DNA of 64,000 nt from Candidatus Thorarchaeota archaeon (GTDB lineage Archaea; Asgardarchaeota; Thorarchaeia; Thorarchaeales; Thorarchaeaceae): the NCBI GenBank assembly GCA_003345545.1, contig PRDH01000012.1, forward strand, positions 19,177 to 83,176, read 5' to 3'. The translations under genes were made by a program, and so were the position numbers. The notes beneath the pieces are model-generated. The model ran no database searches, had not been told where the DNA came from, and was given only the letters and a program-made list of their open reading frames with translations. Positions 3,887 through 63,886 of the stretch are shown here, one piece after another; positions within the stretch are counted from its first letter, which is position 1, and every line of letters starts with the position of its first letter.

Positions 3887-4231
3887 GTGAGTAATGACGA
3901 TGGCGGAATATGCCCCAATTGTGGGTTACCTACGGATCTGTGCGTCTGTGAGACCATCGCACAGGAAGAGGCTCGGATTACTGTGAGTATAGAGCGAAGA
4001 AAATGGGGCCGGTTGACCACTATTGTCGAGGGTTTTGACAAGAGTATTGACCTCGGTGACCTGGCTACAAAACTTAAGGCCAAGCTTGCTTGCGGAGGAG
4101 CAGCAAAACACGGCCATATCGAACTTCAAGGAGACCATCGGGGAGTCATTGGAGAAGTTCTAGCGAAGCTTGGATTTCCAGATGAGATGGTCCAGATTGA
4201 TTGGTCCTTCGTATCTACTGGAAGAGGGTAA
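3887..4231 (+). CDS. sui1: Translation initiation factor aIF1 (SUI1)
   Basis: CPNCGLPTDLCVC, LKAKLACGG, IELQGDHR. Confidence 0.95.
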   Translation: MSNDDGGICPNCGLPTDLCVCETIAQEEARITVSIERRKWGRLTTIVEGFDKSIDLGDLATKLKAKLACGGAAKHGHIELQGDHRGVIGEVLAKLGFPDEMVQIDWSFVSTGRG

Positions 4232-4284
4232 TTACGCCCTCCGAAACTCCTATTTCATAACTGAGTAATCTACAGGCAACAAGA

Positions 4285-5265
4285 TCAGAAGTCCATAGGT
4301 TCCAGACCTAGGGAGTCGATACCCAGCTTCTTGACTATCTCCTTGTACCTGTTCCTTACAGTGACTTCGGTCACTCTAGCAACCTCAGCGATCTCTCGCT
4401 GAGTCCGCCGCTCATCAAGCATGATTGAGGCCACGTAGATGGCAGCAGCCGCTAGCCCAAGTGGGTCGCGACCGATCGTGAGGCCTATATCCCGGCTCTG
4501 TTGTAGTATCTCGACAGTCCGAAGTTGCACAGGGCTTGACAGCTCAAGCTGGCATGCAAACCGTGAGATGTAGTCAATGGGATTGGAGAGGGGAATCTTG
4601 ATGTCAAGACTTCGAAGAAGTAACCGATAACACTGGCCAAGTTTCTTGCGGTCAATTCGTGATCCATCAGCCACTTCATCAAGGGGTCGTGGCTTCAAAC
4701 GTATTCTGCAGGCAGCATAGAGAGTAGCTGCGACCATCGCCTCTATTGAACGACCGCGGACTAGTTTCTTGATAATTGACTTTCTATAGAGGAGCGCAGC
4801 AAGCTCGCGAATTGGTTCTGGAATGCCAAGTTGTGACGAGAGTCTCTCAAGCTCGGACATCGCCTGAGCAAGATTCCGATCGAGAGAACTATGAACGCGA
4901 CTACGTATCTGCCATTTGCGAAGCCGGTAGATTTCGGATCTCCTAGTCGGACTGAGTTTCTTTCCTGCAGTATCACGGTCTCGCCAGTCAATAATCGTAC
5001 TGAGCCCTTTGTCGTGCACGGTGTAGCGGAGCGGAGCACCTACTCGACTCCGTGAATCACTCTCCTCTGAGCTGAAAGCTCTCCACTCAGCACCTGTATC
5101 AATTCGGTGGTCTGAGAGTACAAGTCCACATCCGCCGCAGACTCGTTCACCGCGAGTAGAGTCCTCTACAACAATTGCCGATTTGCACTCAGGGCACCTC
5201 AGAATTTCGACAGTCGCTTCCGATGCTCCTTCTTTTTTGTCCTCGGCGCTTCCTGTGCGGTCCAA
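4285..5265 (-). CDS. tfb: Transcription initiation factor IIB
   Basis: Zn ribbon CPEC...CGGCG, EWRAF B-reader, two cyclin repeats, VTEVTVRNRYKE. Confidence 0.97.
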   Translation of the reverse strand: MDRTGSAEDKKEGASEATVEILRCPECKSAIVVEDSTRGERVCGGCGLVLSDHRIDTGAEWRAFSSEESDSRSRVGAPLRYTVHDKGLSTIIDWRDRDTAGKKLSPTRRSEIYRLRKWQIRSRVHSSLDRNLAQAMSELERLSSQLGIPEPIRELAALLYRKSIIKKLVRGRSIEAMVAATLYAACRIRLKPRPLDEVADGSRIDRKKLGQCYRLLLRSLDIKIPLSNPIDYISRFACQLELSSPVQLRTVEILQQSRDIGLTIGRDPLGLAAAAIYVASIMLDERRTQREIAEVARVTEVTVRNRYKEIVKKLGIDSLGLEPMDF

Positions 5266-5453
5266 TCGCTCTCCTCCGATGTGTAGGAACCGGTTTAAGA
5301 CCGTCAGTATTCACTGTCATATCGATGTACCGATGACAGTCTCCCAGGACCCACAATAACAAAACTACGGAAAAAATACTTTTAATCCTTCTGTGTCCAC
5401 CGAAAATCGATTCGGCAAGGGACTATGTAATGAAATGTGCATCTCAGAGAAGG

Positions 5454-6395
5454 CTAGGTGGTCTGTTCATGTCCTTTCTCAGTGATAATGACAGTGTGTT
5501 CATGCTGGGACACAAACTGACCCTTCTCTTCAGCTAGGATATGATGCGCGTATAGGACACCATTCTGGCGAAGCTCTCTGATTGCCATCTTGAGTGTCGC
5601 ATGCTTCATGCGCTCTGCGAGCCAGCGTTCAGCGAACGGGAACTCTCTGTATTCCTTTCTAGCAATCCCTAGGAACTGTTTCGAACCAGCAAACCGTAAT
5701 GGGACACGTATCGGAAGAAGCTGATAGATTGTGGGGTTGGGTAGATCAGTTATGTTCCCAGAACCTGTACTTGCAAAGGTCTCGACAGCATAGACTTCTC
5801 CTGCTTCAACCAAGACCTCGGATTTCCCACCAACACATGGCACCTGTTTTTCAGCGTGAAGCTCATATTCCTTCAGCTGGTGTCCTGTAAGCTGTTTGAT
5901 GGGCTTGAACCCTGCCTTGGTGATGGTATCTTCGATGAGCGCACCGATTGTATTGAGCTTCGCGCCGGGGCGCATCATCTTGACAGCTACATTGGTGGCA
6001 TCCTCAGCGGCCTTCACGAGATCCTGATGATCAGGATTCAGAGCCACTGTGAATGCAGTATCCGCAATACAACCGTCAACATGGGAACCACAGTCTACGG
6101 TGACAAGATCGCCTTTCTGGAGAGTGGTTTCATCATTGAGGGGTGAGGTATAATGTGCCGCAATGTTGTTCAGTGATACATTGCATGGAAACGATGTTCC
6201 TGAGGAGTTCGCGCGGATGTAGTTCTCAACGGTATTGATGATATCAAGAACCTTGATTCCGGGCTCAATCATTGGTCGAGCAAGGGCGAGAGCCTCACGT
6301 GCCACTGCTCCTGCACGCCGCCACTTTTCCCAGACATCCTTGTTCTCGTTGTCGTCTTCTTTCTCTTTTGGCATTTCATCCGGCACAGTAACCAC
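5454..6395 (-). CDS. map: Methionine aminopeptidase type II
   Basis: FPCNVSLNNIAAHYT, DxGxHVDG.IAD.A, LTGH, QHEHTV. Confidence 0.95.
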   Translation of the reverse strand: MVTVPDEMPKEKEDDNENKDVWEKWRRAGAVAREALALARPMIEPGIKVLDIINTVENYIRANSSGTSFPCNVSLNNIAAHYTSPLNDETTLQKGDLVTVDCGSHVDGCIADTAFTVALNPDHQDLVKAAEDATNVAVKMMRPGAKLNTIGALIEDTITKAGFKPIKQLTGHQLKEYELHAEKQVPCVGGKSEVLVEAGEVYAVETFASTGSGNITDLPNPTIYQLLPIRVPLRFAGSKQFLGIARKEYREFPFAERWLAERMKHATLKMAIRELRQNGVLYAHHILAEEKGQFVSQHEHTVIITEKGHEQTT

Positions 6396-6450
6396 CGACC
6401 TGACTGCTCGTCATTGGTGGGACAGATAAAAGTGACGATGGAGCAGAAAC

Positions 6451-6858
6451 CTATGATAGTACTTGTTCAATACGTCGTGCAGTTCTGGACATTGAGAAGA
6501 ACATGTATCCAATGTTGGCACGCTTATTGGTCAGAACGGCAAGGATTGCATCATTCCCAGCATCACAGATGATGACATATCCACTCTCTCCCTCGATGAG
6601 CATCCTAATGAGAGAACCGCGCTTCAGTTGCTTGAACACCTTTCTGGTAGCCTCTTGTATCTGAATGGTGCGTCCTGCAATGACATCCTCTTCAGGAATC
6701 CGCTTCTCATCAGGACCTTCAGGGTACAGGGAGTATATAGGAAGTCCTTGCGACTTTGAGATGATAGCACTCGCTTCCACATTGCCTTGGGAGGCTCTAC
6801 TCAAATCTAGAAGAAGTTCTTTCAGTAACTCAGTCTTTGAGGACAAGCTATAGCGCAC
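6451..6858 (-). CDS. Roadblock/LC7 domain protein
   Basis: VEASAIISxxxGLPI...LKRGSLIRMLIEGESGYVII..AG..AILAVLT pattern. Confidence 0.85.
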   Translation of the reverse strand: MRYSLSSKTELLKELLLDLSRASQGNVEASAIISKSQGLPIYSLYPEGPDEKRIPEEDVIAGRTIQIQEATRKVFKQLKRGSLIRMLIEGESGYVIICDAGNDAILAVLTNKRANIGYMFFSMSRTARRIEQVLS

Positions 6859-6897
6859 CTCCCAGAGGAGACTGAGTGAAAAGGGGTTGTCAAGTAT

Positions 6898-7671
6898 TTA
6901 AACTCTCTTGGCGCCTGCTTCCTTCAAGGCTTTGACTATCTTCTTCAGTCCTTCACCCTTGTCTTTTTGAACATATTTCTCGAGATAGGTCCCTTGGACA
7001 ACTATTGATGCTCCAGCCTCTATGGCACCGACCACAGACGCTGCATCATTAAAGCCTCCTCCGGTAATCACAGGAATCTCGATGAACTTCGAAACCATGG
7101 CTATCATCTCAGGAGGCACACCTCCGCCTTCTGCTCCGCTGCCAGCTTCAAGATAGACAAGCTTCATGCCAAGAAGTTCGGCAGCAATGGCATACATCGC
7201 TGGAATCTTGGGCTTGTCCCGAAGGAAGGGTTTTGCGTCGCCGACCCATGCTGCAGTCTTCCCGGGAGCCACCATGAGATACGCCATTGGGATTGTCTCA
7301 ATACCGGCGAGTTTGATTTTCGGTGCCGCTAGAGCCTGTGCTCCAATGATCCAGTAGGGATTTGTGCTGTTGAGAAGAGTCATGAAGAACATTGCGTCCG
7401 CGTATTCAGAAACCCCTGTGATATTGCCGGGAAAGAGGATCGTTGGAATATCAATAGCCTCGTTGATCTCACGCACTGCGTCGTCAATCACACCAAAGAC
7501 TGTGCTTCCACCTATCATTGCCGCATCGCTGCCTGCCTTCTCAGCAAGTTTAGCAATCTCTACAACATCTTCGATAGTTGTAGAAAGTGGATCAGGATCA
7601 AGTAGGGAGAAATGAAGTGCACCCTCAGTCTCTAGCTTCTCCGTGATGTAGCTCCAGACCTTGCCTGGCAT
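6898..7671 (-). CDS. Geranylgeranylglyceryl phosphate synthase
   Basis: LLDPD, MIGGST, ILFPG, YLEAGSGA, GGG motifs; likely start MPGKV. Confidence 0.93.
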   Translation of the reverse strand: MPGKVWSYITEKLETEGALHFSLLDPDPLSTTIEDVVEIAKLAEKAGSDAAMIGGSTVFGVIDDAVREINEAIDIPTILFPGNITGVSEYADAMFFMTLLNSTNPYWIIGAQALAAPKIKLAGIETIPMAYLMVAPGKTAAWVGDAKPFLRDKPKIPAMYAIAAELLGMKLVYLEAGSGAEGGGVPPEMIAMVSKFIEIPVITGGGFNDAASVVGAIEAGASIVVQGTYLEKYVQKDKGEGLKKIVKALKEAGAKRV

Positions 7672-7837
7672 TATGAAACCTCCATCGGATATGGCCATCC
7701 GGTCCCAGCGTGCTTTTTACACTTTTGGTGGGATTTTCCACTAGATTAATGTCTATCTAGGTAGGCTGCATTCTCATCAAATACCTCAACGTGCAATTCG
7801 ACGCTGTTGCCCGGGAGAGTACTGTGCCGGTGAGCTA

Positions 7838-8473
7838 GTGGTCAGTGAAAGTATGAAGGATGTGACGGTGGCCATCTTGGCTGGAGGTGACTCAAGACGA
7901 TTCGGTTCAGATAAGGCCTTGAAGGAGTTTCAAGGGCGGCCTCTAGTATCACATATGCTTGACATCGCTCGGGAGATTTCGCCCACTGTCCTTGTCGTAG
8001 TGTCAGATGGTGAACATCTTGAGAGGATCAAGCCGCACATCAAAATGGGACGTGTTGTCGTGGACCCAGAGGACAGCACGAAGTCAGCCTTGAATGGAGC
8101 TGTCACTGCATTTGAGCACGCAGAAACGGACTACACACTGCTACTGCCAATTGATACACCCCTTGCGAGGCCAAGCCTGTTGAAGATACTTGTGGAGATG
8201 AGTCCTAAGCACGGAGCTGTAGTGCCCTCATGGCCATCTGGATATATCGAGCCGCTTCACTCGGTCTACATGACAGAGCATGCCTATTATCACGGACTAA
8301 AGGTCTTGGGGCAGAAGTCATTCGAGATGCACAGCCTACTTAATCGACTCCAAAATGTCTTGTATGTGTCAACAGAAGCCCTGAAGCAGTTTGACGCCAA
8401 ACTTGAAACCTTCAAGAATTTCAATACATTGGGCGAATTGAAGGCTGCAGAGGGAAAGTACCGGAGCAAATGA
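7838..8473 (+). CDS. mobA: Molybdenum cofactor guanylyltransferase
   Basis: ILAGGDSRRFGSDKA, DTP, EPLHSVY, FKNFNT. Confidence 0.88.
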   Translation: MVSESMKDVTVAILAGGDSRRFGSDKALKEFQGRPLVSHMLDIAREISPTVLVVVSDGEHLERIKPHIKMGRVVVDPEDSTKSALNGAVTAFEHAETDYTLLLPIDTPLARPSLLKILVEMSPKHGAVVPSWPSGYIEPLHSVYMTEHAYYHGLKVLGQKSFEMHSLLNRLQNVLYVSTEALKQFDAKLETFKNFNTLGELKAAEGKYRSK

Positions 8474-8526
8474 CCTGCGAGTCTTCTGAGAGTTTCGGTA
8501 GATGGACTTCGGTTCAGGCGAGATCC

Positions 8527-9606
8527 TTAGGCTCCTGAGTTCTCATGGCGGATTCTGCACGTGCCCTCATGACCAACCATGCATGGCCCATAGGGGTTCT
8601 CAGGGGTGCAACGGTTCCCAAATAACTTGCAGTCCACAGGGTCAACCATACCGAGAATCACTTCATGGCATCTGCAACCAGGGAGGATATCCACAGACTC
8701 AGTATCCGGAAAGTCGAACCTGAGTCTAGCGTCATGCGCGCGGTACTTTCGTTTGATGAAATAGCCGGATTTCTTGATGATTCCGAGACCTCTCCAAGGA
8801 GCGTCACCAATCCTGAATGTCTGGCTCAATACTCTCTGTGCTGTAATGTTGCCCTCAGGACGAACTACACGTGTGTACTCATTCTCTGAGACTGCTCTAC
8901 CTTCAGATATCTGTAACGCAATCATCCGAATGGCCTCGAGGACATCCAGTGGTTCGAAACCAGCAGCAACACACGGCACATGACGTCTCTCCGCAAAGGA
9001 CTGGAATGCATTCGAGCCAATGATTGCTGAAACATGTCCCGGAGTGATGAAGCCATCCACCGCAAATCCTTCAATGTTGACGAGAAGATCCATCGCAGGA
9101 GGAATGACCTTCAGTGACGTGAGAATCGAGAAGTTAGGAGGAGGCGAGCGAAGGAGCTCTAGTCCAATAGTGGGGGCGGTGGTTTCAAAGCCAACTCCGA
9201 CGAACACGACTTGCTTGTTAGGATTCTTCCTAGCAATCTCAACGGCATCATTGGTACCATACACCACTCGAACATCGGCACCCTTCGTGCGCTCTTTTGC
9301 CAGTGAGGAGTCAGTCGAGGGAACACGAACCATATCTCCAAAGGTCGTCACTATGTGGCCCTGCCGCGCCAGCGCGATTGCCATGTCTACATCTTCGGCT
9401 GCGCACACGCACACTGGACACCCAGGGCCCGCAACTAGGTGCATGCTCTCGGGCAACAGGGAGCGAATTCCGTATTGACTTATCGTGTCCTCATGCGTGC
9501 CGCACACATGAACAATCCTTAGCTGCCGATTATGGCTCAGAGTCTCGATCTCTCTCTTCAGAGCTTGAGCGTATCGGGCACTGCGGAATTCAAGTTGTTT
9601 GCTCAT
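8527..9606 (-). CDS. hypD: Hydrogenase maturation protein HypD
   Basis: VCGTH, GPGCPVC, GFETTAP, PGHVS, C-terminal Fe-S cysteines. Confidence 0.96.
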   Translation of the reverse strand: MSKQLEFRSARYAQALKREIETLSHNRQLRIVHVCGTHEDTISQYGIRSLLPESMHLVAGPGCPVCVCAAEDVDMAIALARQGHIVTTFGDMVRVPSTDSSLAKERTKGADVRVVYGTNDAVEIARKNPNKQVVFVGVGFETTAPTIGLELLRSPPPNFSILTSLKVIPPAMDLLVNIEGFAVDGFITPGHVSAIIGSNAFQSFAERRHVPCVAAGFEPLDVLEAIRMIALQISEGRAVSENEYTRVVRPEGNITAQRVLSQTFRIGDAPWRGLGIIKKSGYFIKRKYRAHDARLRFDFPDTESVDILPGCRCHEVILGMVDPVDCKLFGNRCTPENPYGPCMVGHEGTCRIRHENSGA

Positions 9607-9670
9607 CGCATTATGACCACTTGGTACCTAGTGGACTTAGCATAAAAATGACGATGTGTGGCAAAAAGAT

Positions 9671-9997
9671 TCAGGATTTCGATTCGTATCCTTCTAGAAT
9701 GGCGAGGGCTTCTCCCACGGTAATGGACAACTTGCTGGCGAGTTCCCTTGCTGTGATCTTTGGATCCTCCGGAATGATATGATTGATTGCGTACCCTGCA
9801 TTGCCTGCGAACAGAGGATTATTCCTTGCAGTTTCAATCAGAATAGGCCATAGAGGATGCCCCTTGAAATCAGCAACGTCAATATCGATTGTTCGACCAG
9901 ATTCATACTTAACAGAGCGGACGTTAACCGACTTCTTTGATGTTTCCTTGGTCTTAGTAGAATCAGTGAGCTTCGCCTGTCTCAATGCGACATCCAA
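9671..9997 (-). CDS. Hypothetical protein with possible C-terminal HTH
   Basis: 108-aa ORF; ITARELASKLSITVGEALAIL is HTH-like. Confidence 0.6.
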   Translation of the reverse strand: MDVALRQAKLTDSTKTKETSKKSVNVRSVKYESGRTIDIDVADFKGHPLWPILIETARNNPLFAGNAGYAINHIIPEDPKITARELASKLSITVGEALAILEGYESKS

Positions 9998-10235
9998 CCT
10001 TTCTTTTCCCGGCGTTGCCTATGACAATAGGAACATCTCAGAAGTCTTCGTTGACACGATATAAGCCTTGGGGAGCGTCATCTGTCCTGAAACTGAGTAG
10101 CGCCACTAGCAGAATTGGTGCTCATGCCTGAATTTTCAATGGCAGTATTATGTCGCAAGATTTAACAAGGGAATCAAGAAGAGCATGAAACGAAGCAGAA
10201 TAAGGCCTCAATGCCAAAATGGGAGAATGCGATCA

Positions 10236-10532
10236 GTGCCTCAAGGCATTCGGAGAATAGTATTGGATGTTTTGAAACCTCACAGTCCGCCGCTGACTGA
10301 GCTCTCCTTGATGCTCGTACGAGATGCACGCGTAAGTGGAGTCAACATCTCGCTCAAGGAAGTAGATCAAAACACTGAGAGCATCACTATCACTCTGGAG
10401 GGAGATGACCTGAACTTCAGCAGTATCAGGGAGGTTCTAGAAGACGCGGGAGCAGTCATCCACTCCATTGACCAAGTTGTAGCAGGAAAGTCATTTGTTG
10501 AGGAAGTAAACCTTCAGCTTGAGGATACATAG
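10236..10532 (+). CDS. DUF211 family protein
   Basis: IRRIVLDVLKPH...GAVIHSIDQVVAG signature; GTG start at 10236. Confidence 0.9.
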   Translation: MPQGIRRIVLDVLKPHSPPLTELSLMLVRDARVSGVNISLKEVDQNTESITITLEGDDLNFSSIREVLEDAGAVIHSIDQVVAGKSFVEEVNLQLEDT

Positions 10533-10537
10533 AGATA

Positions 10538-11152
10538 CTATCTTCTCTGGATCTGGTCACTTACCCTCTTGCTCTCGATCTCAATCTTCTTGCGGACAAG
10601 GGCATATAGCTCTGGCTCGAAAATGCCAGGAATGATTTTCACAACACTGCACAGCTGATCGACTATCTTCTCAGCTAGAGACTCTGGTGAAAGCACATTA
10701 CGGCTAACAATACCGATTACAAGCTCTTCACCAACATTGGCACGAACGACAGAGTCAACAACGCTAGATATCGTTCCCTGAGGATCCATGAAGAAGGGGA
10801 GCTGCGTGCTATCATGAATGGTTGAGAAGCCAAGCTTGTCGCAGATACTCTCCGTGTACCATTCCAGGCTGGATTCCTTCATATTGAGCTTGTTAGCGAA
10901 CTCTGTTTTCGTCAGAGGATTCGGGTGACTCCAGGGGTGTCGTGTCACAATATAGAGCGCTGCGGCAAAGAGGGGATCTTCCTCCCGTGGCCTGCCCTGT
11001 TGAGAAACATATCTCCGGACAAGGTCAAGTGCCATCTTCTCATATCTTGCATCAATCCGGTTCTCTTTGAAAAACTCATGAGCATGAAGCACAGCCTCCA
11101 CAATGATTTGAGGACTGATAGGGAATTCTTCTGAGTCATGATGAGATTCCAT
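10538..11152 (-). CDS. Hypothetical protein with a single TFB/cyclin-like repeat
   Basis: LFAAALYIVTRH...PLTKTEFANKLNMKESSLEWY resembles the TFB cyclin repeat. Confidence 0.6.
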   Translation of the reverse strand: MESHHDSEEFPISPQIIVEAVLHAHEFFKENRIDARYEKMALDLVRRYVSQQGRPREEDPLFAAALYIVTRHPWSHPNPLTKTEFANKLNMKESSLEWYTESICDKLGFSTIHDSTQLPFFMDPQGTISSVVDSVVRANVGEELVIGIVSRNVLSPESLAEKIVDQLCSVVKIIPGIFEPELYALVRKKIEIESKRVSDQIQRR

Positions 11153-11268
11153 CTGTGTTCCTCTCGAATACGCTCTGCAAGCTACAGCTGGTTTCAGTGG
11201 AACTAGATGCAAGATATATTCTTTTGCAAAGGAAGTAAGGGTGAGTTCTTAAGGGCGCCATCACTGCT

Positions 11269-11847
11269 TCATCTAGCGCTGTACGTCTTTTCGAGGGCCC
11301 AACGGAGAGTAGACTGTATCTCCTTCATTCGGTTCTCATCACCGCAGTTCCTGATGACCATCTCACCTAGGATGTTGTCTTCTGAATGCACTTCAAAATC
11401 AAAAGCATCTTCCCATTCAATCTCACCGTTCTCAACTCTATGACGGTCTTCCTGCTGGAATTTACCGAGAATTCTCTCCACGAAGAATCGGGCAAAGGCT
11501 CCACGAGTGATGTCATAGACTGCATGCTCGGCAGGTAGGAACCGCATGGTCTGTTCAGAGATCTCAATGATTCCGAGCTCTAGTTTGCCAGCCTTGTTCA
11601 TCAGGACTATACTCTGAGGCTCGGTAGTTTCTGCTGCTACCTTGGCCGGAGCTGCGCCTTCGACACTCGGAGCCTTCGCCAACGCGGCATCAGCTGTTGT
11701 GAAACTGGCTTTGGCGATCTGAGCATCAAGATTCTCTATGTGCTCCTCGAAACGTGCAATCATATCTCGTAGTCTATCAATCTCTTCGTTCAACTTAGTT
11801 CTAATATTCAGAAGAAATTGAATGTCAGGATTCTCCACTCTGTGCAC
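11269..11847 (-). CDS. Hypothetical protein with N-terminal coiled coil
   Basis: 192-aa ORF, heptad N-terminus, Ala/Pro linker, globular C-terminus. Confidence 0.7.
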   Translation of the reverse strand: MHRVENPDIQFLLNIRTKLNEEIDRLRDMIARFEEHIENLDAQIAKASFTTADAALAKAPSVEGAAPAKVAAETTEPQSIVLMNKAGKLELGIIEISEQTMRFLPAEHAVYDITRGAFARFFVERILGKFQQEDRHRVENGEIEWEDAFDFEVHSEDNILGEMVIRNCGDENRMKEIQSTLRWALEKTYSAR

Positions 11848-11941
11848 CTACATAGACAACTGACTATACAGGTCATTGTCTGATGATATATCATTGCATG
11901 TATTATCATAAAGCTCGCAGAAAGCGAGTGTGCTGATGAGG

Positions 11942-12157
11942 TTATTCCTCGACGGAGATTGCAAAGTCAGGACACTCCATCTCACAGAGCCGACAGACCT
12001 TGCAGGACTCAAGATCTACTACAATAGGGAGAAAGGAACCACGATTATCCACAACATCTGACTTTTTCAAAACACCATGGGGACAGACGGAGATGCAGAT
12101 ATGGCATCCCTTGCACAATTTGGCGTCAATATGGATTTGCTTTGCCTTCCTCGGCAT
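11942..12157 (-). CDS. 2x[4Fe-4S] ferredoxin (2-oxoacid oxidoreductase delta-like)
   Basis: CKGCHICISVCP and CKVCRLCEMECPDFAI. Confidence 0.9.
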   Translation of the reverse strand: MPRKAKQIHIDAKLCKGCHICISVCPHGVLKKSDVVDNRGSFLPIVVDLESCKVCRLCEMECPDFAISVEE

Positions 12158-12277
12158 TGTCAGATTCCCAAGCGAAAACGCCGGTTGCACTGGATATAAC
12201 AATATTCATCCGACCAGAGAGAGCGACCATTAAATAGCCAGAACTATAAACACTGTACTAGTGCTGGGGCTTCACCA

Positions 12278-12991
12278 TTGAAACAATTCGTAGTGTTCAT
12301 GTGTGCTAAGTGTAGAAACTTCACGAATTCTCCGGTGGGGCAGAAACACAGACGATGCAGCTATTGTGGCAGCATCATCGATATCACGAAGGCGAACTGT
12401 GCTCTCTTTGATGGACCCGAACAGGCTATGGAAGCAGTCAAGAAGTTCAATGCTGCAAGGGGAGGAAACGAGTTTCAAGATGCTGTGGAAAGGTCGAAGG
12501 AAAGATACCGTTCCCTATTGCCCGAGGAACCAGTCGATATTGACAAGATGGCGACCGACGATGAACAACTGGTCCTCCCAGGAAAACGAGCGCGTCTGAT
12601 GGCGATACTCGAAGAAGAGGCTAGGGGAAAACCTTGTTCGCTTGACAGACTCGAGGAGTTAAGCGATAATCGGCAACTTCGCTGGACATGGGTCGAGAAG
12701 ACTATTCAGGACCTATCAAATAGTGGAGCACTAATATTCCCACACCCATGGGAAGTGCAGCTAGTGGAAACCAACGAAGACTCGTCGCCAAAGAGCACTG
12801 CCGAGCGTGATGTATCAGCGGAAATCATCTCATTTCTGAAGATGCAAGGAGAGAGAGTGAGGGTTGATGAGATTGTGCGTCATTTCGAGAAGAGGGGGAT
12901 CTCAGAAGCATCAGTCGACAGCTCACTTGAACGACTCATGAGAAGTGGAGATATCTTCCAGCCGACTGTCGGGTATGTGAGTTTGGTATGA
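12278..12991 (+). CDS. DUF1922-like Zn-ribbon protein with C-terminal winged-helix domains
   Basis: CAKC...CSYCG N-terminus; LSNSGALIFP and LMRSGDIFQPTVGYV wing motifs. Confidence 0.7.
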   Translation: MKQFVVFMCAKCRNFTNSPVGQKHRRCSYCGSIIDITKANCALFDGPEQAMEAVKKFNAARGGNEFQDAVERSKERYRSLLPEEPVDIDKMATDDEQLVLPGKRARLMAILEEEARGKPCSLDRLEELSDNRQLRWTWVEKTIQDLSNSGALIFPHPWEVQLVETNEDSSPKSTAERDVSAEIISFLKMQGERVRVDEIVRHFEKRGISEASVDSSLERLMRSGDIFQPTVGYVSLV

Positions 12992-57749: not shown

Positions 57750-58889
57750 CTAGATACAGCGGTGTATGACCTCTGGTCCGACTTCCTCGAACTCTTTCTT
57801 AGACACCCACATCTTCTGGAATGTCTTCAGTGAGCCAAGAATGCTTCCTCCAATCCAGACAGAGTACTGTCTCTCAGGTGGAGCAATGATTCGAACCTCG
57901 ATGTTCTCTGGGACTAGTTCGGTGATCTCCTTGTGGAGTCTCTCCTTGAGTCCTGGGAACATGGTCGAGCCGCCTGATAGTACAATGTTTGCGTATAGGT
58001 CACGTCGCAAGTCGACATCACATGCCTTGATTGACTCGACAATGTGCTCATCGAGTGGCATTGTGTCAAGACCAATAGCGCTTGGGTTGAAGTACAACTC
58101 AGCAGCCTGGAACCTCTCAGCACCCACAGTGATGACCTCACCGTCAGGGAGCATGTAGGGCTTGTCGACACCGGCCTTGTCAGCGACCGTCCGTTCCCTC
58201 TCGGGATCAAGAGCTACGTAACATAGCTTCTCTTTGATGTCTCTGACAATCTCTTTCTCTGCGCCGCTGACAAAGGAGTATCCCCTCTGTCTGAGCAGCC
58301 TGCGCAGGTACTCGGTGATGTCTCTTCCAGCCAGGTCAATTCTGCGGATGGCGTGATTGATCGAGAAGCCCTCATAGATAGGTACTATGTGGGTCACACC
58401 ATCACCAGAGTCTATGACCAGACCTGTTGTTCGGCCAGATGCGTACAGTGAGAGTACTGCCTGTGTGGCAACGTACACTGCGGGCACTCCGAAGTTGTCA
58501 AACATAACGGAGGCCATACGCTCTCTGTTCTCTCTGGGGTTGAATGGTGCTTCAGTGAGGAGCACCGGGTTCTCACTTGGGTCTACCTTCAAGTCGTTAT
58601 AGAACGTGTAGCTCCATATCTTCTCGATGGCATCCCAGTCTTCTACAATTCCATGAGAGATCGGGTAAACCAGACGCAGGACACCACGTAGGTTGATAGC
58701 CTCTTCACCAATGTAGTAGTCACGTGTGTAGTGATCAACATCGGTCATGATTGACTCATATCTTGGATAACCAATCAGAGTCGGCCAGACACTTCGTGGC
58801 TGATCTTCGCCGGCGTATCCGTTCTTGCTCAATCCAGTGCCGTTGTCAATGACAATCGGCTTGGCGCCAAGAAACTCGTCTTCAGCCAT
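57750..58889 (-). CDS. Asgard actin (Lokiactin-type, eukaryote-like)
   Basis: [77 protein letters not shown]. Confidence 0.98.
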
Positions 58890-59158
58890 TTTTCGGTCCT
58901 CGTGTTATTTTGTTTTAGGCAAATACAGAAATTCAGATTTGCCAGTTCGGAACTAGGGAAGCTCCTTGCTACAACATCGTTTCTGTAGTATGTATTTAAG
59001 GGTTCGTCTGATAGCTATGAATCGAATCGAAAAGTATCTTACTAATGTATATTGGACAGCCTTTTCTGACCGTTTTTCAGGCAGTAGACCACATTACATT
59101 CGATAAGTATAATAGGTTAGTACACAAGATTACTAGATAATATATCCGCATAAGGTGA

Positions 59159-59938
59159 TTGGCGATGCTCAGAAAGCCTCTCGAAGACATCATTAGAGAA
59201 GAGATCGAAACGGTCAGAGCACGAAGAATAATCTTGGACCAGCTCGAGGGGGGACTGAAGACTGGGGCAGAACTGAGAGAGAAGATTGCCACAGATATCA
59301 AGGCCCAGATGATGTTGGAGGGGGCAAGCAAGAAGGAGATTGAGAAAGTGGATGTGACAAGTCCCAAACTCTATCACAACACATCCCGCCTCGAAGATCT
59401 TGGCATCATTGTCAGCTGGAAACAATCTCAGTACCGCCTTTTCGAACTAGAACCCAAAGCAATTCATCCAATACGTAGAGCTCTGGGGATTACTAAACCA
59501 TTGCTGTATGTCACATCGTTGAACAGGCCGGAGGATCAGAGACCCTTTGTACAGTGGCTAACGAACAATCCGTACTTCAATCCAAAGAAGCTCTTGGTCT
59601 TTGTTGAGGCCAGACATTGGACACGTGGTGTGTCAAGGATTGTTGACCGATTCATTCCTGATGATGCATTCAGACGATGGACCACAGAATGGATTGAGGT
59701 GCCGGATGAGGTGATTGGAACTGATGATGAAAATGAGTATGGGCATCTTCAGGGCACCTTTGATTTTATGGAAACGGGAATAATCGATAATATCCTCGTC
59801 CATGACATCGTCATCGACCTGACCCTTGGGCCTTCATTGATCGCTCTCGCGTTAGCAAAGCTCGCGGCTGAGTACTCAATCACTGCCTTTCATGTGACTA
59901 GGTATGATAGGACCAATGCTGAGATAAGCTACTACTGA
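59159..59938 (+). CDS. ArsR-like wHTH fused to a C-terminal CARF-like Rossmann domain
   Basis: ARRIILDQL...PKLYHNTSRLEDLGII wHTH; LLYVTSL and IVIDLTLGPSLIALALAKLA resemble CARF motifs I and II. Confidence 0.65.
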   Translation: MAMLRKPLEDIIREEIETVRARRIILDQLEGGLKTGAELREKIATDIKAQMMLEGASKKEIEKVDVTSPKLYHNTSRLEDLGIIVSWKQSQYRLFELEPKAIHPIRRALGITKPLLYVTSLNRPEDQRPFVQWLTNNPYFNPKKLLVFVEARHWTRGVSRIVDRFIPDDAFRRWTTEWIEVPDEVIGTDDENEYGHLQGTFDFMETGIIDNILVHDIVIDLTLGPSLIALALAKLAAEYSITAFHVTRYDRTNAEISYY

Positions 59939-59947
59939 GGGTGGTGA

Positions 59948-60628
59948 TTGTTAGACATGACAAGACTCGGCTGGAAACCCGTTGATATATTGGCCAAGCT
60001 CGACATCCTGCTTGATGCAATAGAACAAACTAGGAATAAGACCCCCTCGAACAAATCGCGACTCATGACCAAGATTAGTCGATGGGAAGAACAGATTGAA
60101 CAGATAAAAGGGGACATAGAGTATGTCAATCACAACCTTGCTCCCAAGCTAGAAACAATGCTAAGTCTGAAGATTACGAATCTAGAACTTCTTCAGGTGG
60201 CAATGTTTCAGCCAAGCACAAAGAATCTGTTTCTGGAGCTTGAAACGCACTACAGAAGTGAAGGCACGAATCCCCTAGGTAATCATGGTTTTGCAGATCT
60301 CATAGCACTGGGCGAGATTGCCATGGTGATTGCGCTACTCGGGGATGCTGCAATAGCCATGGGAGTCCTATATCAGCTATGGCGACCTGAACCGAGTGAT
60401 GTGGGGCATCTGACCCAGGAGAAGTCAGAGATTGTCAGTAATGAACACATGGCAGAGGTGTGCGACCGATGGGGACTCTATGAGCATCGTATTCATCTTG
60501 ATTCGGAGGTACCTAGCAGGGCCGAAATTGAGCATGACAAGGGAACCCTAGTAGAGGCCATCTATGGAATCATCCAGATGGAGTACGGTTTTGGTAGTGT
60601 CCTCGACAACGTCAGACATCTGCTCTAG
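59948..60628 (+). CDS. Ribonuclease III domain protein without dsRBD (Mini-III-like)
   Basis: LLQVAMFQPS, ALLGDAAI, IVSNEHMA...WGL, GTLVEAIYGII. Confidence 0.8.
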   Translation: MLDMTRLGWKPVDILAKLDILLDAIEQTRNKTPSNKSRLMTKISRWEEQIEQIKGDIEYVNHNLAPKLETMLSLKITNLELLQVAMFQPSTKNLFLELETHYRSEGTNPLGNHGFADLIALGEIAMVIALLGDAAIAMGVLYQLWRPEPSDVGHLTQEKSEIVSNEHMAEVCDRWGLYEHRIHLDSEVPSRAEIEHDKGTLVEAIYGIIQMEYGFGSVLDNVRHLL

Positions 60629-62148
60629 TACTCAAGAAAGTCATGTTCATCATCCCGATGGAGGGGCATGTCAGCCACAGGAAACATTCTTTCAAACTTC
60701 CTCTGTATGACACCTGCAATGCTAGGGTCTGAGTATACACGGACTGACGGGATAGTACGTGTCTGTTGTCTGAGGGTCTGCAGAAGAGGGTAACCCTCAT
60801 TTGTTTCATCAAGGCTCACAATATCAAACCCTTGTTCCCCTCCCACCAGAAGTGGAATCTTGCTGAGACTCTTCGCCCCCAAGTCAGGCACTACAACGTC
60901 AATCACTACACTACCAGGTTTCTCAGAGAGCTCATTCTCTGCTTCAATCAGGGTTTGGATTCTGGTAAGCATTGAAAAGAGCTCCTTCTTTGCACTCGGT
61001 TCGAATGACGCGAGAGACTTGGAGAAAGCGACTTTGAATAGGCGCCTATAACGAATCCGTGCTGCATATTCTCTCACAAAGGCGATGTCAGATTCAGAGA
61101 GCCAGCGATACAGGTCTCCATCATTCATTCTAGTGAACAGACCGATACACTCATTCTTTGAGAGACCCTCTTCCTCCATTCTGAAGTACGTAGCCTTTGA
61201 AGTCAATGCCTCTGCAAGTTTCACAGCATGGTGGAGATAGAGATCAGAGAACATCCAATTGCGGCTCAGGATGAGAGCCTCGAGAGAAGAGATTGCCTTC
61301 AGCATAAAGGCACGAACGTATTTTTCCTCTTTTCCCATGACCACTCGGTTGGTAAGCAGAACTCGCTCAGCAGGAAAGACACCAAGCTGCACACCACTGA
61401 AATGCGCATCACGTATCAGGTAATCTGTCTTGTCAATGTCCAGGGGATGATCAAGAAAGTCTGCTAGCAGGTTCAGTATAGGGTCGTCCGTTTTCCGTCT
61501 GATGATACTCATGATATCTCTTGGGTCTATACCGTTTTGTCTAAGTGTGTCAGTGAGCCCACTGTTGAGGATTAGGAATTCTCCAAGGTCAACATGATCA
61601 AGGCCAGCCCAAGATTTCAGAGCGTACTCGATTGTATGAGAGGTCGGAGGATGGCCGACATCATGGAGCAGAGCCGCAGCCCTGAAGAGCTTCTTTTGAT
61701 AGTCATCAAGCAAGTCCGAAAACGGTTTGAAACAGCCGCCCTCAAGGTCCTCGCAGTAGTTCACGACTCGAATGGATTTTTGAGCAAGGAAATTCGTGCC
61801 AAGGCAGTGTTGGAATCTCGTATGAGTGGCCCCGGGATAGACAATGTGAGCTGGTCCCAGCTGCATCACATAACGGAGCCTAAGCATTTCCCACGTAGAT
61901 ACTACATCAAGTTCCCAAGGCTCTAGAATGATTGCCCCGTGAACAGGGTCTTGGATGGCTTTTTGTCGTGTATGTTTCTCGCCCATTCCTATGAGACGCT
62001 TATGTTCCCGTATAGACTGGTCTATTCTACTCCATTTCTCACCACCCTCCTTCTTTGCTGTGTTAATCTCATTCTCCCTGAGACCAGTCAGGCGAATGAA
62101 TTGGATGGCATTCACATCTGTATCACTTTGCAATGCAGTCAGACCCAA
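60625..62148 (-). CDS. HD-domain phosphohydrolase, SAMHD1/dGTPase-like
   Basis: IQDPVHG, RLRYVMQLG, YPGATHTRFQH.LG, ALLHDVGH, DIDKTDYL.RD, Y.H. Confidence 0.92.
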   Translation of the reverse strand: MGLTALQSDTDVNAIQFIRLTGLRENEINTAKKEGGEKWSRIDQSIREHKRLIGMGEKHTRQKAIQDPVHGAIILEPWELDVVSTWEMLRLRYVMQLGPAHIVYPGATHTRFQHCLGTNFLAQKSIRVVNYCEDLEGGCFKPFSDLLDDYQKKLFRAAALLHDVGHPPTSHTIEYALKSWAGLDHVDLGEFLILNSGLTDTLRQNGIDPRDIMSIIRRKTDDPILNLLADFLDHPLDIDKTDYLIRDAHFSGVQLGVFPAERVLLTNRVVMGKEEKYVRAFMLKAISSLEALILSRNWMFSDLYLHHAVKLAEALTSKATYFRMEEEGLSKNECIGLFTRMNDGDLYRWLSESDIAFVREYAARIRYRRLFKVAFSKSLASFEPSAKKELFSMLTRIQTLIEAENELSEKPGSVVIDVVVPDLGAKSLSKIPLLVGGEQGFDIVSLDETNEGYPLLQTLRQQTRTIPSVRVYSDPSIAGVIQRKFERMFPVADMPLHRDDEHDFLEY

Positions 62149-62196
62149 GATTAGGAAGACATGTCCGATATTTAAGCCATGACAAAAGCAACAATA

Positions 62197-62757
62197 TCAG
62201 GAATGTGTTCTCGAGAGCTTCACATGTTCGCGAGCTTCAATATACTCGAAGGTGCTATCAGTCTTCATGGCTCTGCAGTATTCATTGGGATGACAATACC
62301 CCCAGTGACGCATGGAGTTGCAGGAAGGAGCGCTTCGTGATTTGTAAAATGGCGGTGCAAGAAGACCCACTGCTGCGAGGTAGTTCGTGACTGTCTTGAT
62401 TGTCTTCTTTGCATAGGCCAAACGTATGCATGGCGGCGCTCTCTCAACGATGTCCCAAGTCGCCATCTTGTATAGCCGGGACCAAAGTAGGCAATTCTTG
62501 GCAACATAGAGGAGCTCACACTTAGGGCAGGTCTTGATGTGAATGGAGATCTCACACAGCTCATTACGAGTTGTCCTAATGAGACCGTCCCTACGAAGAT
62601 GATGAAAGTTGACTTGGGCAAAATGATGGGGTGTGAAGGAGCCAAACTCATCAGCAAAGGATTGAAGCTCCTTGGCGATGGTCTCTGACGTAGAGAACCA
62701 TTCATCCTCGTTCAGTTTTGGTGGTTCAGTGTCTCCATCCATAGTATCAGGTCTCAT
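62197..62757 (-). CDS. Stand-alone primase large subunit Fe-S (PriL-CTD)-like protein
   Basis: PPCI...PSCNSM..WGYC....YC four-Cys pattern plus an extra CPKC. Confidence 0.6.
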   Translation of the reverse strand: MRPDTMDGDTEPPKLNEDEWFSTSETIAKELQSFADEFGSFTPHHFAQVNFHHLRRDGLIRTTRNELCEISIHIKTCPKCELLYVAKNCLLWSRLYKMATWDIVERAPPCIRLAYAKKTIKTVTNYLAAVGLLAPPFYKSRSAPSCNSMRHWGYCHPNEYCRAMKTDSTFEYIEAREHVKLSRTHS

Positions 62758-62872: not shown

Positions 62873-63886
62873 ATGACCATGTTCGACGTTGTTTCAAAGG
62901 TTACTTTCAAAGAGGTAATCACTTCCGTCGAGCTAGTGGATCTAAAGGGAATGGGGAAGAGTAACGTTGTTGTGACCACGCTTAATGGCGATGTGAAGGT
63001 CTATGAGTTCGACCGAGCTGAGAAGACCCCTCTTGCTGAGCAATGCAGCCTCGCGGATATGCCACCTCTCGCAGCTATTGCTATTGGGGATGTTACAGGC
63101 GATGGTGTCGCGGACTTTGTCATGGGTGGGCTTGATAACACTCTCCGGGTCGTTGTGTATTTGGACGACAAACTCAGTGTGAAGGCGTCAACTCCTCTCG
63201 GCAGCCTCCCCACATCTGTGTCAGTCCTGAACATCCTCGGCAATGAAAGCGCAGAAGTTGTTGTGGCTACTAGCGATGGCAGCATGCGCTGTTATGGCTG
63301 GTATGATGTTGCTCTTGACAAACTGGCGCACAAAGTGCTTGAACGGCCAGTGTTTTCGATACAGCCTCTACGAACAAAGGGATTGCCCTATAATCGTTTC
63401 ATCTTTGGTGACGATTCAGGGTTTTTTTACATCTATCAGTATGCTGATGATAGACTGCATGAGAGAGCGAGAACTAGTGTTGGAGGAGATGTCGAACTCC
63501 TGTCTTCCGGAGACATCACAAATGATGGGAACGACGAGGTATTGACCGTATCTGACGCGAAGACACTTACTCTGTTCGGCCTTGTGAAGGGGACAATGGA
63601 GAGGATTGACTCTATTAAAGCGCCTAACACTGTCACTGGAATCAAGATGGGTCGCTTCTGGGATCTTGAGCCAATGCGAGGTCAGATGGTCATCAGTCAT
63701 GCCAACTCCAACATCGCACTATTGACGCTGGTCGAAAAGAGAATCAATTTAGAAACAACACTTAGGACATCAAAAAAGGCAACAGAGTCAATCCTAGCCA
63801 TCGGAGACATCGACGGAAACAAAAGGTGCGAGATAGTACAAGCAGTAGGAAACAGCTTGTATGTCATCGACTTTATCGCTGAATGA
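62873..63886 (+). CDS. Cytoplasmic FG-GAP-like beta-propeller (BBS2/ITFG2-like)
   Basis: Repeated GD[VI]xxDG..E motifs (GDVTGDG, GDITNDGNDE, GDIDGN); no signal peptide. Confidence 0.75.
   Translation: MTMFDVVSKVTFKEVITSVELVDLKGMGKSNVVVTTLNGDVKVYEFDRAEKTPLAEQCSLADMPPLAAIAIGDVTGDGVADFVMGGLDNTLRVVVYLDDKLSVKASTPLGSLPTSVSVLNILGNESAEVVVATSDGSMRCYGWYDVALDKLAHKVLERPVFSIQPLRTKGLPYNRFIFGDDSGFFYIYQYADDRLHERARTSVGGDVELLSSGDITNDGNDEVLTVSDAKTLTLFGLVKGTMERIDSIKAPNTVTGIKMGRFWDLEPMRGQMVISHANSNIALLTLVEKRINLETTLRTSKKATESILAIGDIDGNKRCEIVQAVGNSLYVIDFIAE

What the first reader, a model, noticed from the sequence alone, without database searches (positions are those of the whole stretch)
59159..62757. Candidate nucleotide-sensing/immunity module: wHTH-CARF + RNase III >< SAMHD1-like dNTPase + primase Fe-S domain
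Two convergent gene pairs with overlapping stops (60625-60628) combine a putative nucleotide sensor-regulator, a dsRNA nuclease, a dNTP-depleting HD enzyme of a family with antiviral roles (SAMHD1, bacterial dGTPases) and a primer/template-binding-type Fe-S domain. I do not recognise this combination as a described system. It could be an Asgard antiviral or nucleotide-stress module. Functional linkage is inference from adjacency only.
Basis: inference. Interest (0 to 1): 0.75.

Follow-up and report, generated by a model that had tools for sequence, protein, structure and literature searches.

The report
Core actin-side genes, not defence module
Four real neighbouring genes of a Thorarchaeon (a CARF-sensor DNA-binding protein, a stripped-down RNase III, an extra SAMHD1-type HD hydrolase and a cysteine-rich primase-like iron-sulfur protein) are inherited core genes beside the actin gene and form at least three separate transcription units, so they are most likely not one antiviral system.

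Summary
All four ORFs exist at the stated coordinates, and the two convergent stop codons share CTAG at 60625-60628. Three domain calls are confirmed: wHTH-CARF, RNase III and SAMHD1-type HD. The fourth, a PriL-like Fe-S domain, is plausible but weakly supported.

The reading as one immunity module is not supported. The block actin<>ORF1-ORF2><HD,ORF4<>FG-GAP is single-copy and fixed in all 9 Thorarchaeaceae genera examined. It lies in a housekeeping region with no defence-library hit in the flanking genes tested, and no Cas10 was found in this genome.

Outside the family the genes separate:
- ORF1 stays head-to-head with actin in 7 of 9 loci from other Asgard families.
- ORF2-like genes sit alone.
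- ORF4 sits beside purine-synthesis genes.
- The HD is a family-specific paralogue, lost in 2 of 17 genomes, with its own conserved TATA box.

The HD's nearest relative lies next to a TIR/RNase III/Argonaute cluster in one Lokiarchaeial genome (n=1).

Earlier reports of this scan, on at least 8 other Thorarchaeota genomes, reached the same conclusion for ORF1-ORF2. New here are the ORF4 and HD analyses.

The parts
57750..58889 (-). Actin (lokiactin-type) gene, the conserved divergent partner of ORF1
   Evidence: Pfam Actin E 4.5e-133. It is adjacent and divergent to ORF1 in all Thorarchaeaceae loci and in 7 of 9 loci from other Asgard families.
58890..59164 (.). Actin-ORF1 divergent spacer. 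It holds a TATA-like box for actin (58993-59000, CTTAAATA on the minus strand), a TATA-like box for ORF1 (about 59105-59114) and conserved blocks, including TTCGA[A/T]AAGTAT twice.
   Evidence: Alignment of 10 same-genus spacers shows invariant blocks. Sequence. The promoter assignment is inferred from the archaeal TATA consensus.
59159..59938 (+). ORF1: N-terminal winged helix-turn-helix plus C-terminal CARF domain (CARF_m5 family). Likely start is ATG 59165.
   Evidence: PADLOC CARF_m5 E 1.6e-23. AF2 model has pLDDT 88.7. Foldseek top hits are Csm6, Card1, Cdn1, Cam1, Can2 and Csa3 CARF domains plus ArsR/PadR wHTH. Single copy in 24/24 genus genomes.
59948..60628 (+). ORF2: RNase III-domain protein without dsRBD, with a helical N-terminal extension. 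It is in an operon with ORF1. Likely start is ATG 59957.
   Evidence: Pfam PF00636 E 3.6e-9. D133 and E203 are invariant, with A129 and T200 at the other two acidic sites. It is the only RNase III gene in the genome. ORF1 stop and ORF2 start overlap by 4 nt in loci of at least 5 of the other 8 genera.
60625..62148 (-). ORF3: SAMHD1-family HD phosphohydrolase, a family-specific extra paralogue
   Evidence: Pfam HD + HD_assoc_2. PDB 2hek E 5e-30, EF1143 and SAMHD1 about 1e-21, with the H..HD..D motifs aligned. The orthologue occurs only in the family (15/17) plus one Lokiarchaeial genome.
62169..62176 (-). Conserved TATA-like box CTTAAATA, 20 nt upstream of the ORF3 start. It implies that ORF3 has its own promoter.
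   Evidence: The motif is invariant in the ORF4-ORF3 spacer of all genus genomes and present in loci of 2 or 3 other genera. Sequence. Promoter function is inferred.
62197..62757 (-). ORF4: 186-aa protein with eight invariant Cys. The N-terminal part is wHTH-like, and the C-terminal part is a shortened PriL-CTD-like putative 4Fe-4S domain.
   Evidence: Alignment A1 gives invariant C68, C77, C80, C89, C110 (PPC), C146, C155, C161. Asgard PriL has PPC...C-x8-C-x6/11-C. hhalign against PriL gives prob 55%, E 1.2e-4. VIA-align gives Z 4.0 to human p58C 5dqo_A and Z about 5 to wHTH domains.
62873..63886 (+). FG-GAP beta-propeller gene that closes the conserved block. In the sister family it directly follows ORF1.
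   Evidence: Pfam FG-GAP_3 / BBS7 propeller. Synteny (L026).

Best explanation
The four genes are not one system. They are a family-level (Thorarchaeaceae) fixed arrangement of independently evolving core genes, inserted into an old housekeeping region next to actin. (1) ORF1 is a CARF_m5-type wHTH-CARF transcription factor whose conserved partner is the divergently transcribed actin gene. It most likely binds the shared spacer and regulates actin and its own operon in response to a small ligand (inferred). (2) ORF2 is the family's only RNase III-type protein. It is co-transcribed and often translationally coupled with ORF1, and probably acts in dsRNA or structured-RNA processing with a reduced Asp/Glu active site (inferred). 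(3) ORF3 is an extra, dispensable SAMHD1-type (d)NTP triphosphohydrolase paralogue with its own promoter. (4) ORF4 is a separately distributed wHTH-like, PriL-CTD-like metal-cluster protein, probably a nucleic-acid-binding or redox-sensing factor. Shown here: gene reality, domain identities, distribution, synteny, HD loss, and the conserved TATA box. Inferred: all biochemical roles.
For: Distribution and inheritance: ORF1 is single-copy in 24/24 genus genomes. The whole block is kept in 11/11 genus loci and in all 9 genera of the family.

The genes separate outside the family. Only the actin<>ORF1 pair persists, in 7 of 9 distant loci, and those orthologues hit CARF_m5 at E down to 2.4e-80. 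In the sister family ORF1 is followed directly by the FG-GAP gene (L026). ORF2-like genes in another family have unrelated neighbours: Orc1/Cdc6, thiolase, MFS and LRR. ORF4 homologues in three other families lie elsewhere in the genome; in the two where neighbours were annotated they sit by purF, purD and purE.

The HD orthologue is absent from G042 (deleted between ORF4 and ORF2) and is a fragmentary pseudogene in G052, while the other genes remain.

Background control: clearly unrelated housekeeping genes further along (CDP-alcohol phosphatidyltransferase, NTP-transferase, Sua5, THUMP, CGI-121, PRTase) keep their order over even larger distances. Conserved order here is therefore not specific evidence of function.

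No defence context: six flanking genes have no PADLOC hit, no Cas10 palm domain was found in the 92.9%-complete genome, and the NCBIfam antiphage dGTPase model scores 17.5 bits against a cut-off of 400.

Transcription units: ORF1-ORF2 are separated by 9-19 nt or overlap by 4 nt. A conserved CTTAAATA box lies between ORF4 and ORF3.

Contigs at least 99% identical to actin, ORF1 and ORF3 occur in a wetland RNA library. This is a weak sign of expression, because DNA carry-over is possible.
Against: The four genes have stayed collinear while diverging to 38-45% identity, which is also what a selected gene cluster would look like.

CARF domains are so far known mainly as cyclic-oligoadenylate sensors in defence.

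The nearest relative of ORF3 lies convergent to a TIR - RNase III/dsRBD - PIWI Argonaute cluster in one Lokiarchaeial genome. RNase III and this HD type are therefore neighbours twice.

No experiment or strand-resolved transcript data supports any assigned role. Regulation of actin by ORF1 rests on conserved adjacency and conserved spacer blocks alone.
Confidence: 0.62

Rival explanations
1. One reading: the four genes form one nucleotide-sensing antiviral or nucleotide-stress module. ORF1 senses a signal nucleotide. ORF2 degrades dsRNA. ORF3 depletes dNTPs. ORF4 senses primer/template-like nucleic acid.
For: Collinearity across 9 genera. CARF fold and profile. SAMHD1-family HD with intact metal residues. 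ORF3's sister gene lies beside a TIR/rnc/Ago island.
Against: The genes are unlinked outside the family. They are core, single-copy and vertically inherited in a housekeeping region with no PADLOC hits in the flanks. The HD is lost in 2 of 17 genomes without loss of the rest. There are separate promoters. No Cas10 was found. The CARF basic residue of the D-x-T-x-x-x-[RK] motif is lost in exactly this family.
Confidence: 0.1
2. ORF1 and ORF2 alone form a split CARF effector. Ligand-bound ORF1 switches on the RNase III-like ORF2, or controls its synthesis, to process specific RNAs such as the actin mRNA or rRNA. ORF3 and ORF4 are bystanders.
For: A tight operon with overlapping stop and start in at least 5 of the other 8 genera. 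ORF2 is always next to ORF1 in the family (17/17). Loss of the CARF basic residue and two insertions in ORF1 coincide with acquisition of ORF2.
Against: ORF1 exists without ORF2 in all other families, and ORF2-like genes exist without ORF1 in another family. ORF2 lacks the E38 and E41 equivalents, and E41 tolerates no substitution in E. coli RNase III (PMC10037077; alignment).
Confidence: 0.18
3. The convergent RNase III / HD pair is a domesticated remnant of an Argonaute-type RNA-silencing or defence island that became fixed next to actin in the Thorarchaeaceae ancestor.
For: The G066 HD is the reciprocal best hit and sister of ORF3 (SH-aLRT 97, quick tree). It lies convergent to rnc-Ago, with TIR upstream. 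That locus type is the published HrAgo1 cluster (bioRxiv 10.1101/2023.12.14.571608). ORF3 sits on a long stem branch.
Against: There is a single outgroup genome (cluster of one member). ORF2 is not detectably closer to the G066 rnc (no hit at E<=1e-3; 18% identity). PIWI was found in 0 of 5 genus genomes and in 2 of 17 family genomes, on other contigs.
Confidence: 0.08

Closest known systems
CARF_m5 (minor CARF family carried as PADLOC-DB profile PDLC01987) and Csa3-type CARF transcription factors
   Same: Rossmann-like CARF fold plus a winged HTH. The profile match is full-length (E 1.6e-23 here, down to 2.4e-80 in other Asgard families). Structural neighbours are cOA-binding CARF proteins, including Csa3.
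   Different: The domain order is wHTH then CARF, the reverse of Csa3. There is no CRISPR or Cas10 context. The conserved partner is the actin gene. In this family the basic residue of the D-x-T-x-x-x-[RK] motif is replaced and two insertions are present.
Bacterial Mini-III / class 1 RNase III
   Same: An RNase III catalytic domain above the Pfam cut-off and no dsRBD, as in Mini-III. The Asp of the signature and the C-terminal Glu (E. coli D45 and E117 equivalents) are invariant. Mini-III shows that a dsRBD is not needed for activity (PMC3867540).
   Different: The E38 and E41 equivalents are hydrophobic or Ala, and the D114 equivalent is Thr. There is an insertion of about 35 aa within the domain and a helical N-terminal extension of about 75 aa. 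The profile matches Mini-III structure 4oun only at E 0.25, and matches Drosha and bacterial RNase III better. My recollection that Mini-III carries the same Ala/Thr substitutions was not verified here.
SAMHD1 / EF1143 / Aq_1910 family of HD dNTP triphosphohydrolases
   Same: HD + HD_assoc_2 architecture, with the H..HD..D motifs aligned to solved members.
   Different: It is a second, longer paralogue (507 aa against about 435 aa for the widespread Asgard form, also present in this genome on contig C78). It is restricted to one family plus one Lokiarchaeial genome, sits on a long branch, and is dispensable. It falls far below the cut-offs of the anti-phage dGTPase models.
C-terminal 4Fe-4S domain of primase large subunit PriL/p58 (and stand-alone PriX-like derivatives)
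   Same: A PPC[IV] motif, then C-x8-C-x5-C, matching the Asgard PriL pattern PPC...C-x8-C-x6/11-C. hhalign aligns the last three Cys (prob 55%). Human p58C is the only listed fold match for residues 93-182 (Z 4.0).
   Different: The spacer between the first and second Cys is 35 residues instead of 72-76. There is no PriS-binding N-terminal domain. Four additional invariant Cys and a wHTH-like N-terminal part are present. PF04104 does not detect it. Canonical PriL is encoded elsewhere in related genomes.

Membership tests
CARF superfamily (CARF_m5) | Significant match to a CARF family profile | tested here: met
   PADLOC PDLC01987 CARF_m5 E 1.6e-23, residues 14-251 on profile positions 4-191 of 195. 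Orthologues reach E 2.4e-80.
CARF superfamily (CARF_m5) | Rossmann-like CARF fold | tested here: met
   AF2 model has pLDDT 88.7. The Foldseek top 30 are CARF proteins (Csm6, Card1, Cdn1, Cam1, Can2, Csa3, ring nucleases) at prob 1.0 and E down to 2.4e-5.
CARF superfamily (CARF_m5) | Ligand-site signature [DN]x[ST]xxx[RK] after the fourth strand (feature recalled from Makarova et al. 2014/2020; paper not held) | tested here: inconclusive
   D220-L-T-L-G-P-S here. The D and T are kept, but the basic residue is replaced throughout this family. It is intact (R/K) in 8 of the 9 orthologues aligned from other families.
CARF superfamily (CARF_m5) | Functional link to a cyclic-oligoadenylate synthase (Cas10) | tested here: not met
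   No PF22335 match in the 92.9%-complete genome. The gene is linked to actin instead.
RNase III | RNase III catalytic domain above the curated cut-off | tested here: met
   PF00636 scores 37.7 bits against cut-off 27. The family profile hits Drosha and bacterial RNase III at E 1e-16 to 1e-9.
RNase III | Full set of acidic active-site residues (E. coli E38, E41, D45, E65, D114, E117) | tested here: not met
   Only the D45 (D133), E65 (E166) and E117 (E203) equivalents are present. E38 is replaced by M/L, E41 by A129 and D114 by T200, and these replacements are invariant in 19 sequences. E41 is intolerant to mutation in E. coli (PMC10037077).
RNase III | dsRNA-binding domain (class 1 enzymes) | tested here: not met
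   No dsrm hit. A canonical Asgard rnc (L055) shows one.
SAMHD1-like dNTP triphosphohydrolase | HD domain plus HD-associated region | tested here: met
   PF01966 scores 34.4 bits (cut-off 22) and PF19276 scores 61.7 bits (cut-off 23.1).
SAMHD1-like dNTP triphosphohydrolase | Metal-binding H...HD...D residues | tested here: met
   The RFQH, LLHDVGH and DxDKxDYLxRDA segments align to 2hek and EF1143.
SAMHD1-like dNTP triphosphohydrolase | dNTP triphosphohydrolase activity and allosteric regulation | not testable with these tools
   Needs an enzyme assay.
Anti-phage dGTPase (PADLOC dGTPase; NCBIfam NF041026) | Full-length match above the model cut-off | tested here: not met
   NF041026 scores 17.5 bits against cut-off 400, over 36 residues only. 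PADLOC dGTPase gives E 1.7e-5 over profile positions 73-125 of 395.
PriL/p58 C-terminal Fe-S domain | Match to PF04104 | tested here: not met
   No hit at E<=10. A genome-wide PF04104 search finds only the canonical PriL in relatives.
PriL/p58 C-terminal Fe-S domain | Four cluster cysteines in PriL order, including the PPC motif | tested here: met
   PPC110, C146, C155 and C161 are invariant in 19 sequences. The pattern parallels Asgard PriL.
PriL/p58 C-terminal Fe-S domain | Profile and fold similarity to PriL-CTD | tested here: inconclusive
   hhalign gives prob 55%, E 1.2e-4 over 38 columns. VIA-align gives Z 4.0, rmsd 4.7 A, 87 residues to 5dqo_A at rank 45. Foldseek finds nothing.
Defence island / defence system | Patchy distribution and neighbourhood of known defence genes | tested here: not met
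   Universal and syntenic in the family. Flanking genes are housekeeping with no PADLOC hit.

The most novel reading that the evidence does not exclude
In Thorarchaeaceae a CARF-domain transcription factor that controls the actin gene across Asgard archaea has recruited a reduced RNase III. Together with a SAMHD1-type HD hydrolase derived from an Argonaute-associated lineage, it forms a ligand-controlled RNA and nucleotide-pool circuit. That would be a domesticated defence-type signalling pathway wired to the archaeal cytoskeleton.
Probability: 0.1. Interest if true: 0.7.

Novelty: new variant of a known kind. Interest (0 to 1): 0.4.

Why it matters
As a defence system the finding does not hold, so the locus should not be listed as a new Asgard immunity module.

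Three things remain useful. First, a CARF sensor protein is conserved head-to-head with the eukaryote-like actin gene. This gives a directly testable candidate regulator of the Asgard cytoskeleton and an example of CARF signalling outside CRISPR. Second, Thorarchaeaceae have a single, dsRBD-less RNase III with a reduced active site, which bears on how archaea process dsRNA. Third, there is a stand-alone, shortened PriL-like Fe-S protein of unknown role.

The link between the extra HD hydrolase and an Argonaute/RNase III locus in one Lokiarchaeon is a small lead for work on the origin of RNA silencing.

Tried and rejected
- **Complex prediction of ORF1 with ORF2** (family alignments A5, A6): score 0.00, no verdict. 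It counts neither way.
- **Foldseek of the ORF4 model against PDB:** nothing at E<=0.001.
- **PDB profile search with A1:** only a chance-level CcdA match at E 1.
- **ESM Atlas search for ORF4:** no usable hit.
- **Pfam and NCBIfam at loose thresholds for ORF1 and ORF4:** only noise.
- **Makarova et al. 2020 CARF classification:** not in the library. What is said about CARF_m5 therefore rests on the PADLOC profile alone.
- **The look-up of encoding contigs:** Contexts of further HD relatives could not be fetched. The G066-type HD turned out to be a one-member cluster anyway.
- **RNA library contigs:** they did not cover ORF2 or ORF4. This means nothing for expression, because contigs cannot show absence, strand or operon structure. 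Run X2 holds only 95-99% relatives and may be DNA.
- **sigma-70 promoter scanner:** considered and not used, because archaeal promoters are TATA/BRE-type.
- **Mini-III membership for ORF2:** considered and not adopted, because the profile match to 4oun is only E 0.25.


Full report
**Observation**

The window is contig C12:19177-83176 of a 2.69-Mb, 92.9%-complete Asgard genome. Public names of near-identical proteins identify it as Thorarchaeota.

- ORF1 59159-59938(+), 259 aa
- ORF2 59948-60628(+), 226 aa
- ORF3 60625-62148(-), 507 aa
- ORF4 62197-62757(-), 186 aa

The convergent stop codons of ORF2 and ORF3 share the palindrome CTAG at 60625-60628. Orthologue N-termini and GGTGA motifs suggest that the real starts are ATG 59165 (ORF1) and ATG 59957 (ORF2). 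On the left lies actin (57750-58889, minus strand; Pfam E 4.5e-133). On the right lies an FG-GAP propeller gene.

**What each gene is**

ORF1 has no Pfam hit. It matches the PADLOC profile CARF_m5 over its whole length (E 1.6e-23). An AlphaFold model built from 24 orthologues has pLDDT 88.7. Its C-terminal part matches cOA-binding CARF domains (Csm6, Card1, Cdn1, Cam1, Can2, Csa3, ring nucleases). Its N-terminal part matches ArsR/PadR-type winged helices.

In the alignment the CARF motif D-x-T-x-x-x-[RK] is intact in eight of the nine orthologues aligned from other Asgard families. It has lost its basic residue throughout this family, which also carries two insertions.

ORF2 carries an RNase III domain above the Pfam cut-off and no dsRBD. 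Nineteen homologues keep D133 and E203 invariant (E. coli D45 and E117 equivalents). They have Ala and Thr at the E41 and D114 positions and a hydrophobic residue at E38. Deep mutational scanning of E. coli RNase III found E41 intolerant to change (PMC10037077). Activity is therefore uncertain, although dsRBD-less Mini-III shows that such minimal enzymes can be active (PMC3867540).

ORF2 is the only RNase III-domain gene in this genome, and each of the 17 family genomes sampled has exactly one.

ORF3 is a SAMHD1-family HD hydrolase (HD + HD_assoc_2) whose metal motifs align to solved members.

ORF4 has eight invariant cysteines. The last four (PPC110, C146, C155, C161) copy the pattern of Asgard PriL (PPC...C-x8-C-x6/11-C). 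hhalign aligns that part to PriL with 55% probability. Human p58C is the only structure in the list that covers residues 93-182 (Z 4.0). PF04104 does not detect ORF4, and Foldseek finds nothing. 'PriL-like Fe-S domain' is therefore plausible but not established. Residues 20-81 look like a winged helix (Z about 5).

**Linkage test**

ORF1 is single-copy in 24 of 24 genomes of the genus. The block actin<>ORF1-ORF2><ORF3,ORF4<>FG-GAP is intact in all 11 genus loci fetched. It is also present in all 9 genera of the family, at 38-49% (ORF1) and 42-48% (ORF2) identity.

There are two informative exceptions:
- In G042 the HD gene is cleanly absent between ORF4 and ORF2.
- In G052 only frame-broken N-terminal fragments remain.

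Neither genome has an ORF3-type gene elsewhere.

Outside the family the genes separate:
- Only the actin<>ORF1 pair persists, in 7 of 9 loci from other families. Those ORF1 orthologues are strong CARF_m5 members (E down to 2.4e-80).
- In the sister family ORF1 is followed directly by the FG-GAP gene (L026).
- ORF2-like genes occur in 2 of 15 genomes of one other family, beside unrelated genes.
- ORF4 homologues occur in three other families. In the two whose neighbours were annotated they sit beside purF, purD and purE and FAD enzymes.
- ORF3-type HD occurs only in this family (15/17) and in one Lokiarchaeial genome. Every genome also has the ordinary paralogue of about 435 aa.

**Context**

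Beyond the FG-GAP gene the region continues with CDP-alcohol phosphatidyltransferase, an NTP-transferase, Sua5, a THUMP protein, CGI-121 (KEOPS) and a phosphoribosyltransferase. The order of these genes is kept even between families. This is a slowly rearranging housekeeping region. Functionally unrelated genes also stay collinear here, so collinearity of the four genes is weak evidence of a shared function.

None of six flanking genes hits PADLOC. No Cas10 palm domain was found in the genome. ORF3 is far below the anti-phage dGTPase model cut-offs.

**Transcription units**

ORF1 and ORF2 are 9-19 nt apart in the genus. In at least five other genera their stop and start overlap by 4 nt. This is an operon with probable translational coupling.

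Between ORF4 and ORF3 lies an invariant CTTAAATA box (62169-62176, minus strand), 20 nt upstream of the ORF3 start. It is conserved across the genus and in at least two other genera. The same octamer lies upstream of actin (58993-59000). ORF3 therefore probably has its own promoter. That assignment is inferred from the archaeal TATA consensus.

The actin-ORF1 spacer has further invariant blocks.

A wetland RNA library contains contigs at least 99% identical to parts of actin, ORF1 and ORF3. This is a weak sign of expression at best.

The only close relative of ORF3 outside the family is a 534-aa HD in genome G066. It is the reciprocal best hit and the sister branch in a quick ML tree (SH-aLRT 97).

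That gene lies convergent to a cluster of a TIR protein, an RNase III+dsRBD gene and a PIWI Argonaute. This locus type was published as the HrAgo1 cluster (bioRxiv 10.1101/2023.12.14.571608).

RNase III and this HD type are thus neighbours in two lineages. However:
- It is a single genome (a one-member cluster).
- ORF2 is not detectably related to that rnc beyond the shared domain.
- PIWI was found in none of 5 genus genomes and in only 2 of 17 family genomes, on other contigs.

**Conclusion**

The interpretation as one immunity or nucleotide-stress module is not supported.

The best reading (confidence about 0.6) is a family-fixed set of core genes forming at least three units:
- an actin-linked CARF_m5 transcription factor with a co-transcribed, reduced RNase III;
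- an extra, dispensable SAMHD1-type hydrolase;
- a separately distributed Cys-rich PriL-like protein.

All biochemical roles are inferred.

Earlier follow-up reports of this scan, on at least eight other Thorarchaeota genomes, reached the same view of ORF1-ORF2 and of the HD as a lineage-specific neighbour. I reached my reading before seeing them. New here are the ORF4 analysis, the HD losses, the HD promoter and the Argonaute-locus relative.

Noticed in passing
window 58890-59164: The actin-ORF1 spacer has blocks invariant across the genus. These are TATTTAAGG (58992-59000), the motif TTCGA[A/T]AAGTAT twice (about 59025 and 59100), and TTACTAG[A/C]TAATA[T/C]ATCCGC just upstream of ORF1. They are candidate promoter and operator elements for the actin-linked CARF regulator.
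   Followed up: partly
L055 (G066:C4:393000-411000) 3149-10021: A Lokiarchaeial locus carries a TIR protein, a small ORF, RNase III+dsRBD, a 776-aa PIWI Argonaute and a small ORF, then a convergent 534-aa SAMHD1-type HD gene. That HD is the closest relative of ORF3. The HD gene is not mentioned in the HrAgo1 preprint text searched.
   Followed up: partly
L034 (G052:C40) about 10100-12813: The HD gene is reduced to frame-broken N-terminal fragments, and about 2.4 kb of other DNA lies between it and ORF2, including a CitMHS-like fragment. This looks like gene decay or replacement by an insertion.
   Followed up: no
L026 (G025:C35) 9267-11000; window 62873-63886: The cytosolic FG-GAP/BBS7-like propeller gene follows the actin-linked CARF gene directly in the sister family and closes the block in Thorarchaeaceae. 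It may be the older neighbour of the actin/CARF pair.
   Followed up: no
window 62197-62757 (ORF4 residues 3-37): The N-terminus of the ORF4 family (W..e....e...fi.e.GsF) weakly resembles the C-terminal CcdB-binding region of the antitoxin CcdA (PDB 2adl, E 1). This is probably chance.
   Followed up: no
G000 whole assembly: No canonical PriL (PF04104) was found in this assembly, although 17 of 18 same-genus genomes have one. The likely cause is the missing 7% of the genome, not replacement by ORF4.
   Followed up: no
L049-L054 (families f7 and f19): ORF4 homologues outside Thorarchaeaceae lie in a conserved neighbourhood with purF, purD, purE and two FAD-dependent oxidoreductases. A Mg-chelatase-like AAA+/VWA protein and a Band-7 protein lie further along.
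   Followed up: partly
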